64,000 nt of DNA from Eledone cirrhosa (lineage: Eukaryota): positions 297,290,001 to 297,354,000 of the forward strand of contig OZ024742.1 of the NCBI GenBank assembly GCA_964016885.1, in the 5' to 3' direction. Position numbers and translations under genes: made by a program. Of this stretch, positions 41,962-49,426 are shown one piece after another. The notes under the pieces were generated by a model. That model did no database searches, had not been told where the DNA came from, and saw only the letters and a list, made by a program, of their open reading frames with translations. The first letter of the stretch is position 1. Each line of letters starts with the position of its first letter.

Positions 41962-42040
<79 letters not shown>

Positions 42041-42045
<5 letters not shown>

Positions 42046-45000
42046 TCATCACCGTTTTACGTCCGTTCTTCCACGCTAGCATGGGTTAGACGGGTTGTCC
42101 TGTTGTGGGCAGTGTCTGGTCGGCTGACCATGCCTTGCTCATACAGGAACTGATCTGGCTTGATTTCTACAGCTGGATGCCCTTCCTAACACCAACCTCA
42201 TTTACAGTGAGTGCTGGGTGCTTTTTCGTGGCGCCTACACGTCCACTTTACAGTGTGGGCTGGGTGCTTTTTTGCCGTGGCACCTCCACGACCACCTTGC
42301 GGTGGGGGGGGGGGGCATATTGTTTATATGCTTCAGCATGTACCCATGGGAGGTCGGGTACCCTGTATTACTGCGTGACGCCAGAAGTCACGGTCGTGTG
42401 TCATTGACTTTGAGAGGTGTAGTTGGGTAAGGTCGGCTTTTATCACCTCATCCCAAGTCATCTTGGGTCTCCCCACTCCGCGGTTTCCATCAACTTCTAG
42501 TGCTCTGCACCTTTTTATGCAGCTGTCATCCTTCATACGCATCACATGTCCATACCAGCGTAACCGCCTCTCCTGCACGCAGCATTTGATTCCTCTTATG
42601 CTCAGTCTCTCTCTCAATTCATTTATGCTTTGTCGTTCACGTATATTACTGTTACACATCCATCGGAGCATGCAGGCTTCGTTTCTCTCTAATCTACGTA
42701 GGTCTTCCACCTTCAGCGCCCAGGTCTCACTACCATGCAACATCGCTGTTCGGATACACGCATCATACAGTCTGCCTTTCATTCTGAGGGAGAAGCCTTT
42801 TGCAGCTAGCAGTGGTAGTAGTTCCCTAAACTTCTTCCATCCCGTTCTTACCCTAGTTATTGTACTTTCTGAGCACCCACCTCCGTTGCTAATTCGGTCA
42901 CCTAGGTAGCAGAAGCTGTCTACTGTTTCTACAGGGCCCTCCCAGAGATTGGTGGTACTTGTTTCCTGTGGCTGTTTGCTTGCTGTTTCAGCACAGCTGC
43001 TGCATGTGAATCCTACATTCTTAATTAAGCTTCCTGAGATCCCGCTACATCTCTTGTGTACCCATTGTTTGCATTTGGGGCAAAGAATGGAGTTCCTACC
43101 TACACCTTTCCTACATACTGAGCAAGGCCATTTCCCTGAGGGGATCTGGGTTCTGTTTTCTCGTCTACTTATAAGGACCTTAGTCTTTGTCATGTTGACT
43201 TTGAGGCCCTTTCTCTCTAGTCCCTGCTTCCAGGTTTGGAATTTATTCTCTAGTTCTACCATAGATTCAGCTATGAGTGCGAGGTCATCAGCATACAGGA
43301 GTTCCCATGGGCATCCGGTCTTAAACTCCTCCGTTATTGCCTGCAGGACTATGATGAACAGGAGAGGGCTAAGAACAGAGCCCTGGTGGACCCCAACCTG
43401 TACGCTAAATTCCTCGCTATACTCATTGCCAATCCTAACTTTGCTGACTGCTCCCCTATACATGGCTTGTACCGCTTTCACAAGCCATTCATCTACTCCT
43501 AGTTTTCTAAGAGCCCACCAGATTACTGCACGTGGAACTCTGTCAAAGGCTTTCTCAAGGTCGACAAATGCCAAGTAGAGTGGCTTACTTTTAGCTAGGT
43601 ACTTTTCCTGTAATTGCCTCACAAGGAAGAGCGCATCAGTGGTGCCTTTCCCTGGTACAAACCCAAATTGCATCTCGTCTATATTCACCCGGTCCCTAAT
43701 CAGCTGTGCTATAACTCTTTCTGTTACTTTCATGACCTGGTCCATCAACTTTATACCTCTATAGTTTCCTCTATCTAGTGCATCGCCTTTACCTTTGTAG
43801 CAGTTGACAATGATGCTACTGCACCAATCTTTTGGTATGGCCCCCTCTAGTATTACCTGGTTAACGATACGTGTGGTTATAGTGTGACCTACAGACCCAG
43901 ATGCCTTCAGCATCTCGGCAGCTATACCCGATGGACCGGTTGCCTTCCCTATCTTCATATCTCTGATTGCCTTACTTACTACGCTGCCGCTGACTTGTAC
44001 TGCTGGTCCCTCTATAGGGTCTACGTGGGGTAGGGTCTCTTCTTCCCATGCATTCTCCTCATTTAGTAATCTATCATAATGACTCTTCCATGCATCTTTC
44101 TTCTCAGCACTTGTGAGGGCAAGCTCACCTTTATCATTCCGGATACACTTCTCTCCAATGACATCACAACTATCTCTGACACACTGCCTCGCAATCTTGA
44201 ATACCTCCTGTTTCTGGTCCTCACGTTGTAAAACATGCTTGAATTTTCTATCCTCTGCTTCCCTCCTAGCTAAGTATACTTGTCGCCTAGCTTCCCTCTT
44301 GGTCTCTATGTAATGTACCCTGCTCCCCCCGTTCTTCCATTCTTTCCATGCCTGTCTCTTGGCCTTGACTGCTTCATCTACCTTATTGTTCCACCACCAA
44401 GTCACTCTCCTCCTGCTTGAGGTCTTACTCCAGCCACAAACCTCATCCGTCGCCTCTAGTAAGTTATTTTTTAGGAACTCCCAGTTCTCTTCTACGTTAA
44501 ATGTCTCTATCTGTTCTTCTTTACTGTCGTAGGCGTTGAGTAAAATATCTTTAAATCTGTTACTGGTTGAGGGGACTTTCAGCTTCCAGATCTTTCTTCT
44601 CCAGGTTGGCCTCTGTTTCAGGGCTCGTCTAGTTCTGACCGTGAGGTCGCTGACAACTAAGCTATGTTGGGATGTACATTCCTCACTAGGGAAGGCTTTT
44701 GTGTTTACGACCGTCCATCTGTCACGTCCTCTGATGAGGATAAAATCTAACTGACTAGAGTGCTCCCCTGATCTATAGGTGATCAGGTGGTTGTCGGGTT
44801 TTTTAAAGTTTGTGTTACATATCGACATGTCATTGGCGTCGCAGAATTCTAGAAGTCTGAATCCTTCCTCATTCCTTGTGCCAACTCCATGGCCTCCATG
44901 TACTCTATTGAAGCCGTCGCAGTGTTTACCTACGTGTCCGTTAAAATCTCCTGCAATGATTAGGAAGTCCTTGTCGTCTGTTAGAGCAGTAGTGTGTATT

Positions 45001-45460
45001 AGGGACTCGTAAAACCTATCCTTAAGTTCGTCTGGCAGCCCCGATTGGGGTGCGTAAGCTGATATTATTGTGGTAATTGTCTTATTCAGGACTAGTCTGA
45101 GTTTAATGATTCTTGCATTTACCCTGTACACTGAGATTACTTTATCTACCCACTTGTCAGCTAATAGTATACCTACACCACCCATCCCATCGTCATTTCC
45201 CACCCAGAAAAATTTGTAGCACTGGCTTTTTCCTACAAGGACTCTAGCAGACCCTCCTCTCCATCTAGTCTCTTGCACACAGCATACATCAACTTCCTTT
45301 CGCTCTAGCATTTCTACGATTTCTCCTGCTCTTCCTTTCATTGAGCCTACATTGATGGTACCAACTCGGAGTTTTGGGCATTTGTCGACACTCGTAGGGG
45401 AGGGTCTCTGGGTTGGCGCTTCACGTGGGTGCTTGGTAGCTCGCAGATTCATATTTCATA
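42041..45460 (-). mobile_element. Near full-length RTE-clade LINE inserted in (TA)n
   Basis: Single ORF plus a roughly 290-bp 3' UTR ending ...CCCATGCTAGCGTGGAAGAACGGACGTAAAACGGTGATGATGA. TA runs on both sides. Confidence 0.95.
42333..45452 (-). CDS. RTE LINE polyprotein: AP-like endonuclease, reverse transcriptase and a PHD-like zinc finger (1039 aa, uninterrupted)
   Basis: APE motifs GTINV, CVQETRW, SAYAPQ, GDFNGHVG, DFILI, SQH. RT motifs NYRGIKL, QFGF, FVDLEKAFDRV, GVHQGSVLSPLLF, YADDLAL, FCYLG. Cys cluster CSVC...CPKC...HKRC...CSSC. Confidence 0.96.
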   Translation of the reverse strand: MNLRATKHPREAPTQRPSPTSVDKCPKLRVGTINVGSMKGRAGEIVEMLERKEVDVCCVQETRWRGGSARVLVGKSQCYKFFWVGNDDGMGGVGILLADKWVDKVISVYRVNARIIKLRLVLNKTITTIISAYAPQSGLPDELKDRFYESLIHTTALTDDKDFLIIAGDFNGHVGKHCDGFNRVHGGHGVGTRNEEGFRLLEFCDANDMSICNTNFKKPDNHLITYRSGEHSSQLDFILIRGRDRWTVVNTKAFPSEECTSQHSLVVSDLTVRTRRALKQRPTWRRKIWKLKVPSTSNRFKDILLNAYDSKEEQIETFNVEENWEFLKNNLLEATDEVCGWSKTSSRRRVTWWWNNKVDEAVKAKRQAWKEWKNGGSRVHYIETKREARRQVYLARREAEDRKFKHVLQREDQKQEVFKIARQCVRDSCDVIGEKCIRNDKGELALTSAEKKDAWKSHYDRLLNEENAWEEETLPHVDPIEGPAVQVSGSVVSKAIRDMKIGKATGPSGIAAEMLKASGSVGHTITTRIVNQVILEGAIPKDWCSSIIVNCYKGKGDALDRGNYRGIKLMDQVMKVTERVIAQLIRDRVNIDEMQFGFVPGKGTTDALFLVRQLQEKYLAKSKPLYLAFVDLEKAFDRVPRAVIWWALRKLGVDEWLVKAVQAMYRGAVSKVRIGNEYSEEFSVQVGVHQGSVLSPLLFIIVLQAITEEFKTGCPWELLYADDLALIAESMVELENKFQTWKQGLERKGLKVNMTKTKVLISRRENRTQIPSGKWPCSVCRKGVGRNSILCPKCKQWVHKRCSGISGSLIKNVGFTCSSCAETASKQPQETSTTNLWEGPVETVDSFCYLGDRISNGGGCSESTITRVRTGWKKFRELLPLLAAKGFSLRMKGRLYDACIRTAMLHGSETWALKVEDLRRLERNEACMLRWMCNSNIRERQSINELRERLSIRGIKCCVQERRLRWYGHVMRMKDDSCIKRCRALEVDGNRGVGRPKMTWDEVIKADLTQLHLSKSMTHDRDFWRHAVIQGTRPPMGTC

Positions 45461-45522
45461 TATATATATATGAGAGACGTAAAATAAGAAAATTATAAAA
45501 TTAACTTACTTACTAAAATATC

Positions 45523-45604
45523 ACTTCCAACTAATTAGTTTCTGGAATGGAATAAATATATTTTCCGAAGAAGATACAGAGAAGCATTCCGTCGTCAGGG
45601 AGGT
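45523..45604 (-). ncRNA. Type-I hammerhead ribozyme
   Basis: accucc-CUGACGA-cggaaug...cauucca-GAAAC-uaauua-GUU^ggaagu. Predicted cut between 45529 and 45528. Confidence 0.82.
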
Positions 45605-46285
45605 CTATTCTCATCTAAGTATCCAGGCAAAGCGTGGACACTGGAAACTTATTAAAAAATAATTCAGTGGATAGGAAATAGCAAAGCGTGGACTGAATTC
45701 CTAGCCATTGAGAAAATCACTGCCTCTGCGTCGGTGGCAAATTCAAAAAGAATCAATCACGTGACATCGAGGTCAATCAGTGGAAAGTGGTTTGCTAATA
45801 AGACAGCGGCCTGCTACCATAGCAGCAGTCATGGCCAATATTGCTCGACAAATAATTTGGAGATAATTATGAAGATTTAATATCTAGTAACATATATATA
45901 CATACAGATGCATATCAATGCTAGCAAATATATAGGTTTTGTCTTAGTAACTTTGTGGTTCAATGCATGGGGTTGCAGAACAATAATATGAGAGACGTAA
46001 AATAAGAAAATTATAAAATTAACTTACTTACTAAAATATCACTTCCATTGGCCATGACTGCTGCTATGGTAGCAGGCAGGCTGCTGTCTTATAAGCAAAC
46101 CACTTTCCACTGATTGACCTCGATGTCACGTGATTGATTCTTTTTGAATTTGCCACCGACGCAGAGGCAGTGATTTTCTCAATGGCTAGGAATTCAGTCC
46201 ACGCTTTGCTATTTCCTATCCACTGAATTATTTTTTAATAAGTTTCCAGTGTCCACGCTTTGACTGGATACTTAGATGAGAATAG

Positions 46286-46367
46286 ACCTCCCTGACGACG
46301 GAATGCTTCTCCGTATCTTCTTCGGAAAATATATTTATTCCATTCCAGAAACTAATTAGTTGGAAGT
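46286..46367 (+). ncRNA. Type-I hammerhead ribozyme (inverted copy)
   Basis: CUGACGA 46292-98, GAAAC 46348-52, palindromic stem III AACUAAUUAGUU, GUU^ at 46361, stem I accucc/ggaagu. Confidence 0.82.
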
Positions 46368-46561
46368 GATATTTTAGTAAGTAAGTTAATTTTATAATTT
46401 TCTTATTTTACGTCTCTCATATTATTGTTCTGCAACCCCATGCATTGAACCACAAAGTTACTAAGACAAAACCTATATATTTGCTAGCATTGATATGCAT
46501 CTGTATGTATATATATGTTACTAAATATTAATTCTTTATATATATATATATATATATATAT

Positions 46562-47915: not shown

Positions 47916-49426
47916 ATTGTTTCTACTTTAGGCACAAGGCCAGCAATTATTCCAGTATATTACTGGTACTTTATTTTATCGACCCCATAAGGATGAAAGG
48001 CAAAGTTAACCTCGGCAGGATTTGAATTCAGAATGACAAGGGCCATAACTCTATGCCACAAAGCATGGCCTCCGGCCCTCTGCTGATACTGCCAATCCAC
48101 CGCCTTATGGACATTGAATGATAATGATGATATATATATATTAGAATTTGTGTTTAAAATACGATTGTACTTACAATATTTAAACATTAACCGAATGAGT
48201 ACTCACTCCATGCATGGAGGATGTAAAATATCAGAATATGTATATGTATATATAAATGTGTGTGTATGTGTGTGTGTCTGTGTCAGTCTGTGAATATGTA
48301 TATTATTATAGATTAAAAACTAATCATCCTTCTTATGTTTCACTTATCTTTGCCTCAGATAAGAGATGTATTGCATGGGTATCTCCTAATAATCCATGAA
48401 TATGAAAAAACTGCTGTACAGACTGTGAAGACATTTGAATAAGATGAGAAGTTGTTTAGTTGGTGAGCTGTGCAAGGAAGCGTAAATGAGATTAAAGCAA
48501 GTTTCATATTATCATCGCCCTCACTATCATCATTTTGAACATCATCCACACTATCATTATCATTGTCATAGTTTTTATCATCATTATTACATCCATAATC
48601 AGGGCGGTGGATTTGCAGTATCAATAGAGCATCAGACGCCATGCTTTGCAGCACAGAGTTATTTATGGCCCTCTAAGTTCTGAGTTCAAATCCCACCAAA
48701 GTTAGCTTGCCTTTCATCTTTTTGGGGTCGATAAATTTAATCGACTTTGGCTTTCCTTAAATTTTTTGACCTTGTGCTTATTTATGAAAACATTATTACT
48801 GCCACTATCACCTTCATCATTACCACCAATTACATGTTCTATGTAAATGTTAGCTGGTAATAATGATGTTATATCTTCTGGTTGTTGATAAATTTTTTAA
48901 ATGTTTCAGTCATTTTACTGCAGCAATGTGGGGCACTACCTTCATTTAGTTGATCATATTAACCCTGATATTTATCTTTTCAAGTAAGGTACTTATTTTA
49001 TCAATTATATTTTGTTCAAATTTATGACACATAAACACATAGTCACAAATTCGCCGTCCAATTGCATGTTGGCAAAAGTCAAAAATAATTTTTCTTTTCT
49101 CAATGCATTGGTATGTTGCACACATTTTACATGTTAAGTCATTGTTTAATTATTTCTTTTAATATTTTAATGTATTTATCATTGTTTTGGTCGAAAGAAA
49201 CCTGTAAATATTCTGTTCATTCTTTCTTTCGTTATTGTCTCACAAGTATCTTACCAAAAGTGTTTCTCTACCCTGTTTCACAAACAGGCATTATGAGCAC
49301 AACACCGCCTAAATGCATCAAAATGTATGACAGCAACGTGACTGACTAGGTCTAGAAGTCAAGATAGTTTTGTCTGCTCATCGTATGTATCTGTCTTTTT
49401 GTGTGATTTATATATATATATAATTT

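What the first reader, a model, noticed from the sequence alone, without database searches (positions are those of the whole stretch)
45468..46537. Inversion junction sits on the ribozyme cleavage site, and the inverted copy is a circular permutation
Seen: the minus-strand copy starts at 46046 with GGAAGTGAT, the first bases after the predicted GUU^ cut (1-nt ambiguity at A46047). It runs 518 nt to the cleavage site at 45529/45528 and about 60 nt beyond. The inverted copy (46047-46537) starts mid-monomer, crosses the HHR and continues into sequence that lies upstream in the first copy. Inference: the template was a self-cleaved RNA whose 5' end stopped the RT, and the second copy needed a circular or multimeric template or a jump through the terminal redundancy. 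This would be genomic evidence that the ribozyme was active in vivo.
Basis: partly seen in the sequence, partly recalled or inferred. Interest (0 to 1): 0.9.

Follow-up and report, generated by a model that had tools for sequence, protein, structure and literature searches.

The report
Two-armed hammerhead retrozyme, cut-site stops
This is one of over a thousand copies of a 518-base non-coding repeat with a predicted self-cutting RNA motif, pasted into TA repeats as two back-to-back arms; across the family the arms stop about three times more often than chance at the predicted cut, which likely records RNA self-cleavage in the living animal.

Summary
In detail: the minus arm starts at 46046, the first base after the predicted GUU cut, runs 518+61 nt, and meets a head-to-head arm (46047-46540) that crosses an intact ribozyme. 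The element is a type I hammerhead retrozyme with Penelope-type insertions. It has two fixed 3' ends on (TA)n, monomer positions 61 and 179, and 94 of 96 two-armed copies carry one of each. The second arm is therefore likely a second priming event, not a fold-back or a jump. But 89% of ends lie elsewhere, most arms read through, only 7 of 374 hit the cut ±1, and a second family showed no excess (1 vs 1.6). About half of exact hits are chance, so this one junction proves little. A stop implies a linear template, and the two arms here differ, which argues against one monomer circle. A stall at the uncut fold is not excluded. This scan noted two-armed retrozymes before on other DNA, mostly judging the cut-site match chance.

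The parts
45458..45467 (.). Left (TA)n target tract, joined to the fixed M61 end
   Evidence: Sequence; 1141 exact M61+(TA)n ends in the genome
45468..46046 (-). Arm A, 579 nt: M1-M518 then M1-M61; 3' end at fixed start site M61 (45468), 5' end at the first base after the predicted cut
45523..45604 (-). Type I hammerhead, minus copy: helix I, core CUGACGA at 45598-45592, long helix II with UUCG loop, palindromic helix III; predicted cut 45529/45528; the arm reads through it
45954..45982 (-). Stem-loop M65-93 just behind the M61 start, shared in its outer stem with an unrelated 459-nt family; likely protein recognition site (inferred)
46046..46047 (.). Head-to-head junction: M1 of arm A against M208 of arm B, one shared base
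46047..46540 (+). Arm B, 494 nt: M208-M518 then M1-M179; 3' end at fixed start site M179; carries the 4-nt longer family variant
46286..46367 (+). Type I hammerhead, plus copy; core at 46292; predicted cut 46361/46362, read through
46423..46540 (+). 118-nt tail (M62-M179) present at this end only; counterpart of the Penelope tail between two RT start sites
   Evidence: PMC11167929, PMC8557442
46541..46563 (.). Right (TA)n target tract

Best explanation
This is a non-coding hammerhead retrozyme inserted into (TA)n as two head-to-head arms, likely by a Penelope-type reverse transcriptase that primed once from each target strand at two fixed RNA sites, with the minus arm probably running off a 5' end left by ribozyme cleavage. 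Shown: two fixed 3' ends (M61, M179), one of each per insertion, variable 5' ends, about 3-fold excess of ends at M517-M12 with a sharp upstream edge. Inferred: a Penelope protein nicks both strands of (TA)n; each nick primes cDNA on a longer-than-unit RNA; most cDNAs end early at scattered places; a minority (about 5-10% per passage) end because the RNA ends at a cleaved hammerhead; the two cDNA ends are then joined through microhomology or a few added bases, losing 0-11 nt. Cleavage is partial, because both arms cross an uncut or religated site. In this locus the two arms copied slightly different units, so the template was a mixed multimer or two RNAs.
For: Fixed ends: 1141, 720 and 157. 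94 of 96 two-anchor elements are M61+M179 on opposite strands, P 6e-26; in 49 of 94 neither arm contains the other. Arms of one element share family variants (0.49% shared-variant differences, 45 pairs, against 9.6% for random pairs). Junctions: 52 of 94 microhomology, 8 blunt, 34 with inserts. Ends in M517-M12: discovery 20 vs 9.0 of 229; window fixed in note, then 21 vs 4.7 of 126 in new elements, P 3e-8; pooled 42 vs 14.7 of 374; holds after GC and distance matching, with one arm per element, for non-symmetric ends (23 vs 12.4) and for ends joined to (TA)n (M517-M4: 5 vs 0.8 of 46). Edge: 2 ends in M512-516, 18 in M517-M4. Genome-wide pattern: 43 matches at the site, 6 at a control site; 20 vs 3 in the inspected stretch, P 4e-4. 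L441/L442 and L452/L453 have both arms ending at M1 with 1-3 bases between and no palindrome. Helix II 3' side shows no excess (M501-514: 11 vs 11.4). Core intact in 227 of 281 whole copies; compensatory changes in three pairs of helix II.
Against: 89% of ends (332 of 374) lie outside the window and most arms read through (first passage: 14 of 175 and 16 of 147 stop). Exact site only 7 vs 3.05, P 0.036. A second hot spot lies at M446-459 (26 vs 11.6), away from the cut. 19 of the 42 ends are symmetric junctions, several at a short palindrome at M8-13. A second family with the same architecture shows 1 vs 1.6 of 43 arms. The control site had fewer ends than average (6 vs 11 expected), so test/control overstates the effect. 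The replication set is mostly one older subfamily. In the one Penelope element tested in vitro, ribozyme mutants did not change insertion and no RNA-seq reads ended at the site (PMC11167929). No autonomous partner was found. The window's helix I has a C-A mismatch and helix II opens with a C-A juxtaposition.
Confidence: 0.62

Rival explanations
1. Same two-start Penelope-type insertion, but the excess of ends near the site comes from the RT pausing at helix I or the three-way junction of a folded, uncut hammerhead; no cleavage is recorded.
For: The 3' strand of helix I is M1-6, so a stall predicts ends at M1-M12, where they are. A second hot spot lies in the ribozyme core (26 vs 11.6). Uncut RNA is the main substrate in vitro (PMC11167929).
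Against: No excess at the 3' side of the longer helix II (11 vs 11.4) and a weak one at the M209-236 hairpin (10 vs 5.9, P 0.075); sharp edge at the cut; copies with both arms ending at M1.
Confidence: 0.2
2. The excess is a joining artefact: short palindromes and ATAT matches around M1-M13 attract head-to-head and (TA)n junctions, and the window's junction is chance.
For: Symmetric ends are 8-fold enriched (19 vs 2.4), several at M9-10; other palindromes and stems also collect junctions (M507, M446-475). Earlier unchecked notes e1-9234146 and e1-9188172 read other families this way.
Against: Non-symmetric ends still 23 vs 12.4; TA-joined ends are enriched at M517-M4, not at the ATAT at M8; of 15 inspected exact-site head-to-head arms only 3 overlap their partner by 2-4 nt into the arm; the stronger 8-nt palindrome at M507-514 collects fewer ends.
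Confidence: 0.1
3. One reading: one monomer circle, or the first cDNA with a jump through the 61-nt redundancy, templated the inverted arm.
For: Arms up to about three units long; successive units usually share variants (8 of 8 tandem elements concordant; 0.77% shared differences); retrozyme circles are documented (PMC7229834). Circles may well template many other copies.
Against: A circle has no end at M1; arm B stops at a fixed family end; the two arms here differ by a family indel and 4 substitutions while arm A matches other elements exactly.
Confidence: 0.08

Closest known systems
Animal non-LTR retrozymes (PMC7229834, passages; bioRxiv 10.64898/2026.07.22.740005, parts 1 and 3 of 5; PMC7761336, passages)
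   Same: Non-coding tandem unit with one type I hammerhead per unit, GC 36%, palindromic helix III suited to dimer folding, proposed Penelope dependence.
   Different: 518 nt against 150-450 nt described; mostly dispersed 1-3-unit two-armed insertions; the passages read describe neither fixed start sites nor ends at the cut and propose circles as templates.
Insertions of endonuclease-bearing Penelope-like elements (PMC8557442 and PMC3846280, passages; PMC11167929, parts 1-2 of 4)
   Same: Head-to-head inverted 5'-truncated copy, tail at one end only, two internal RT start sites, (TA)n targets, palindromes and microhomology at the junction, hammerhead upstream of the start sites.
   Different: No ORF; tail 118 nt rather than 30-40; here the two starts are paired one per target strand in 94 of 96 elements, whereas in vitro no strand difference was seen; PMC3846280 explains the inversion by self-priming on an antisense template; PMC11167929 found no role or RNA ends for cleavage.
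R2 retrotransposon HDV-like ribozyme (PMC3774820, search listing only)
   Same: Ribozyme cut coincides with a genomic 5' junction.
   Different: In R2 the cut defines the full-length 5' end; here it accounts for a minority of ends and most arms read through.
L1 twin priming (recalled, no call)
   Same: Two priming events on one insertion give a head-to-head inversion joined by microhomology.
   Different: L1's second primer lands at variable places and the arms do not overlap; here both starts are fixed and 80 of 94 pairs overlap in template coordinates.

Membership tests
Type I hammerhead ribozyme | Core CUGANGA, GAAA and NUH in order | tested here: met
   Both window copies; 227 of 281 whole copies keep both parts
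Type I hammerhead ribozyme | Helices I-III supported by covariation | tested here: met
   93.5% of cells paired in 52 rows; both-side changes in 20, 19 and 15 rows at three helix II pairs; helix I varies on one side only; slid controls 34-53%. Rows are related and a few are truncated arms.
Type I hammerhead ribozyme | G10.1-C11.1 pair next to the core | tested here: inconclusive
   A C and an A precede the first G-C pair; PMC4209133 reports an extra base at the 5' side in Penelope hammerheads
Type I hammerhead ribozyme | Match to an Rfam hammerhead model | tested here: not met
   No match at gathering or E<=10
Type I hammerhead ribozyme | Self-cleavage | not testable with these tools
   Only the indirect excess of arm ends
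Animal non-LTR retrozyme | Tandem unit of a few hundred bases with a hammerhead in each unit | tested here: met
   518/522-nt units in tandem
Animal non-LTR retrozyme | No coding capacity, GC under 50% | tested here: met
   Longest stop-free frame 74 aa, GC 0.357; no similarity to three PLE proteins
Animal non-LTR retrozyme | Linear and circular RNA in tissues | not testable with these tools
   No RNA holder listed
Animal non-LTR retrozyme | Target-site duplication | tested here: inconclusive
   Both ends lie in (TA)n
Penelope-like element (autonomous) | ORF with RT and GIY-YIG endonuclease | tested here: not met
   None in the element; such ORFs exist elsewhere in the genome
Penelope-type insertion | Head-to-head inverted copy and a tail at one end | tested here: met
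   259 of 377 arms join an inverted arm; 94 of 96 mixed ends
Penelope-type insertion | Homology to the pLTR of an autonomous element | tested here: inconclusive
   None in 40 GIY-YIG loci of 10596 candidates nor in 30 motif loci

The most novel reading that the evidence does not exclude
Penelope-type insertions are built by two target-primed reactions, one from each of the two RNA start sites, and the family's arm ends are a genomic record that the hammerhead cut its RNA in the germ line and that cut linear multimers, not only circles, serve as templates.
Probability: 0.45. Interest if true: 0.72.

Novelty: new variant of a known kind. Interest (0 to 1): 0.55.

Why it matters
The papers read call the role of hammerheads in Penelope elements unclear (PMC8557442, PMC7761336), and the one in vitro system found cleavage dispensable and no RNA ends at the site (PMC11167929). 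A replicated excess of insertion ends at the cut, in a family of over a thousand copies, makes the question testable from genomes alone. The strict pairing of the two start sites gives a simple, testable origin for the inverted copy and the one-sided tail. The element class and its overall shape are known, and the single junction is weak evidence.

Tried and rejected
Rfam: nothing. Free folding of the ribozyme stretch does not give the hammerhead and is no better than shuffles (z 1.4 and 0.6); a constrained energy used a wrong offset and is ignored. The 30 loci were chosen for a full monomer and so were left out of all junction counts. Dropped before counts: 2 arms stopped at a family-internal duplication and 3 duplicated junctions. 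One search had the wrong letter sets and served only as denominator (2910 passages). Of 43 matches I inspected 30: by eye 23 junctions (one is the window, three are tandem duplicates), 6 read-throughs with a small indel, 1 unclear; the script's own split was 25 and 5; 13 were not inspected. RNA: no RNA holder listed; three runs of unrecorded kind were laid as contigs and say nothing on ends. Partner search: no homology of M to 40 GIY-YIG loci, to three long PLE ORFs or their flanks, none among 47 unique 5' flanks, none in 30 of 83 motif matches. Second family (30 of 78 loci, 43 arms): no excess at its cut. Pure fold-back of arm A rejected: 49 of 94 pairs have neither arm inside the other. The neighbouring LINE as mobiliser rejected: other copies are flanked by (TA)n. 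An untemplated A on the cDNA cannot be told from U17 of the ribozyme. PMC5850863 was not held. Supplements were not read.

Full report
Observation. I number the monomer M1-M518 on the minus strand from 46046 to 45529, M1 being the first base after the GUU triplet. The locus reads: (TA)n, arm A (minus, M1-M518 then M1-M61, 46046 to 45468), arm B (plus, M208-M518 then M1-M179, 46047 to 46540), (TA)n. The arms share one base at 46047.

Ribozyme. Rfam finds nothing and free folding does not give the motif. The core is nonetheless in order in both copies and intact in 227 of 281 whole copies sampled. On 52 aligned rows 93.5% of cells pair, with changes on both sides in 20, 19 and 15 rows at three helix II pairs; slid controls pair 34-53% (related rows, so not a probability). 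Helix III is a perfect 10-nt palindrome, the design that PMC4209133 (parts 1-2 read) and PMC7229834 (passages) link to dimer cleavage. The window's own helix I has one C-A mismatch, a rare variant. Activity is predicted, not shown.

Family. The own genome (3.0 Gb) gave 2113 candidates. Copies have two fixed 3' ends on (TA)n: M61 (1141 exact matches) and M179 (720 and 157). Of 279 sampled elements 96 had both arms anchored, and 94 of these pair one M61 arm with one M179 arm on opposite strands (P 6e-26). In 49 of 94 neither arm lies inside the other in linear template coordinates, so simple fold-back fails. The two arms of an element share family variants (0.49% shared-variant differences over 45 pairs, 9.6% for random pairs, 0.57% for the best other element). 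Junctions show microhomology in 52, none in 8, inserts in 34 of 94. An unrelated 459-nt hammerhead family has the same layout, with ends at 86 and 191 and a similar stem-loop behind the first end. This is the Penelope pattern: inverted 5'-truncated copy, tail at one end, (TA)n targets (PMC8557442, PMC3846280, passages), two internal RT starts that define the tail (PMC11167929, parts 1-2). Long RT + GIY-YIG frames exist in this genome, but none of the 40 loci read shares sequence with M.

I sampled copies by their 3' ends, which is blind to the 5' junction, and called each arm's 5' end. Discovery: 231 arms of 233, 229 ends; exact site M518-M2 3 vs 1.9 expected (not significant); M517-M12 20 vs 9.0, the top 14-nt window, chosen after the fact. 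I fixed that window in a note and drew new loci: 21 vs 4.7 among 126 ends in elements not seen before, P 3e-8 (mostly one older subfamily). Pooled: 42 vs 14.7 of 374; exact site 7 vs 3.05, P 0.036; one arm per element about 31 vs 10.6. GC- and distance-matched expectations stay at 13.7-14.6. The upstream edge is sharp: 2 ends in M512-516, 18 in M517-M4. A genome-wide pattern for junctions at M517-M1 gave 43 matches, a like pattern at M502-504 gave 6. Of 30 inspected I judged 23 true junctions, 20 without the window and tandem duplicates, against 3 controls in the same stretch (P 4e-4); against the mean rate the excess is about 2.5-fold if about 30 of the 43 are counted. Some elements have both arms ending at M1 with 1-3 bases between (L441/L442, L452/L453).

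Against. 332 of 374 ends lie outside the window; at the first passage 14 of 175 and 16 of 147 arms stop. 19 of the 42 ends are symmetric junctions, several at a short palindrome near M8-13; non-symmetric ends, the window's class, show 23 vs 12.4 (P 0.004) but only 5 vs 2.6 at the exact site (P 0.12). A second hot spot at M446-459 (26 vs 11.6) is not at the cut. The 459-nt family shows 1 vs 1.6 among 43 arms (a 2.85-fold excess has P 0.06 there). The control site is below average (6 vs 11). Helix I's 3' strand is M1-6, so an RT stall on the uncut fold predicts nearly the same positions; the lack of excess at helix II (11 vs 11.4) and the sharp edge argue against it without excluding it. With a 2-3-fold excess, 50-60% of exact hits are due to the site, so this junction has roughly even odds of being a run-off.

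Template. Both arms cross a monomer junction, so the template was longer than one unit or religated. A circle has no end to stop at. A linear RNA from M1 through one uncut site to beyond M179 would hold both arms. Here the arms differ over M208-518 by 4 substitutions and a 4-nt family variant, while arm A is identical to two other elements; the window is the only discordant one of 18 elements scored for that variant. So a mixed multimer or two RNAs fits better than one monomer circle or a jump on the first cDNA; slippage in the 4-nt repeat is a weaker alternative. Circles may template other copies, since successive units usually match.

Mechanism. Shown: fixed paired starts, head-to-head joining, excess of ends at the cut. 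Inferred: Penelope protein in trans, one priming per target strand, partial self-cleavage, run-off, trimming of 0-11 nt at joining. Confidence 0.62; stall 0.2; joining artefact 0.1; single circle or jump 0.08.

Known and new. The element is an animal non-LTR retrozyme by the features testable here, and works like a Penelope insertion without being an autonomous one. A cut that marks a genomic 5' junction is known for R2 (PMC3774820, listing only). Seven paper searches and the passages read showed no count of insertion ends at a Penelope or retrozyme hammerhead, nor the one-start-per-arm rule; most subscription papers and PMC5850863 were not available, supplements were not read. Earlier notes of this scan (unchecked; none by sequence) report two-armed retrozymes on other DNA; one hints at cleavage, most judge the match chance. 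The likeness to L1 twin priming is recalled. Verdict: observation confirmed, interpretation partly supported, new variant of a known kind, interest 0.55.

Noticed in passing
window 42333-45455, minus: Uninterrupted 1040-codon LINE frame (AP endonuclease, RT, PHD finger) between (TA)n at 41968-42043 and the retrozyme's M61 end; probably a separate, 5'-truncated insertion into the same tract.
   Followed up: partly
L357:6506-7420: Second hammerhead family, 459-nt unit, unrelated in sequence, same two-armed layout with ends at 86 and 191; 78 exact ends.
   Followed up: yes
window 45954-45982 and L357:6853-6895: The two families share the outer stem of a hairpin right behind the first start site; candidate recognition signal for a common Penelope protein.
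   Followed up: partly
G000:C5:84646037-84668716: About 22 kb with matches spaced near 527 nt or its multiples: a long tandem array of a divergent subfamily, a possible source of multimer transcripts.
   Followed up: no
L357:7448-8650: Head-to-head remnant in (TA)n with an extension of about 40 nt at one end only; like ends flank L019, L044 and L066.
   Followed up: no
L356:4309-7122, L357:2488-5019, L358:1775-5062: Long frames with RT and a GIY-YIG match near the C-terminus (938, 844, 1096 codons); L356 and L357 are 97.7% alike.
   Followed up: partly
monomer M446-459 and M489-502: A second excess of arm ends in the ribozyme core (26 vs 11.6) and a gap just 3' of it (4 vs 13.2); unexplained beyond stem complementarity.
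   Followed up: partly
L072, L305: Two elements with both arms ending at M179, exceptions to the pairing rule.
   Followed up: no
window 47970-48104 and 48603-48740: Inverted pair of about 135 nt, 76-88% complementary, of another repeat.
   Followed up: no
L345:1035, L358:8828, L346:25, L368:2358: Further hammerhead-like motifs of other families near GIY-YIG matches.
   Followed up: no
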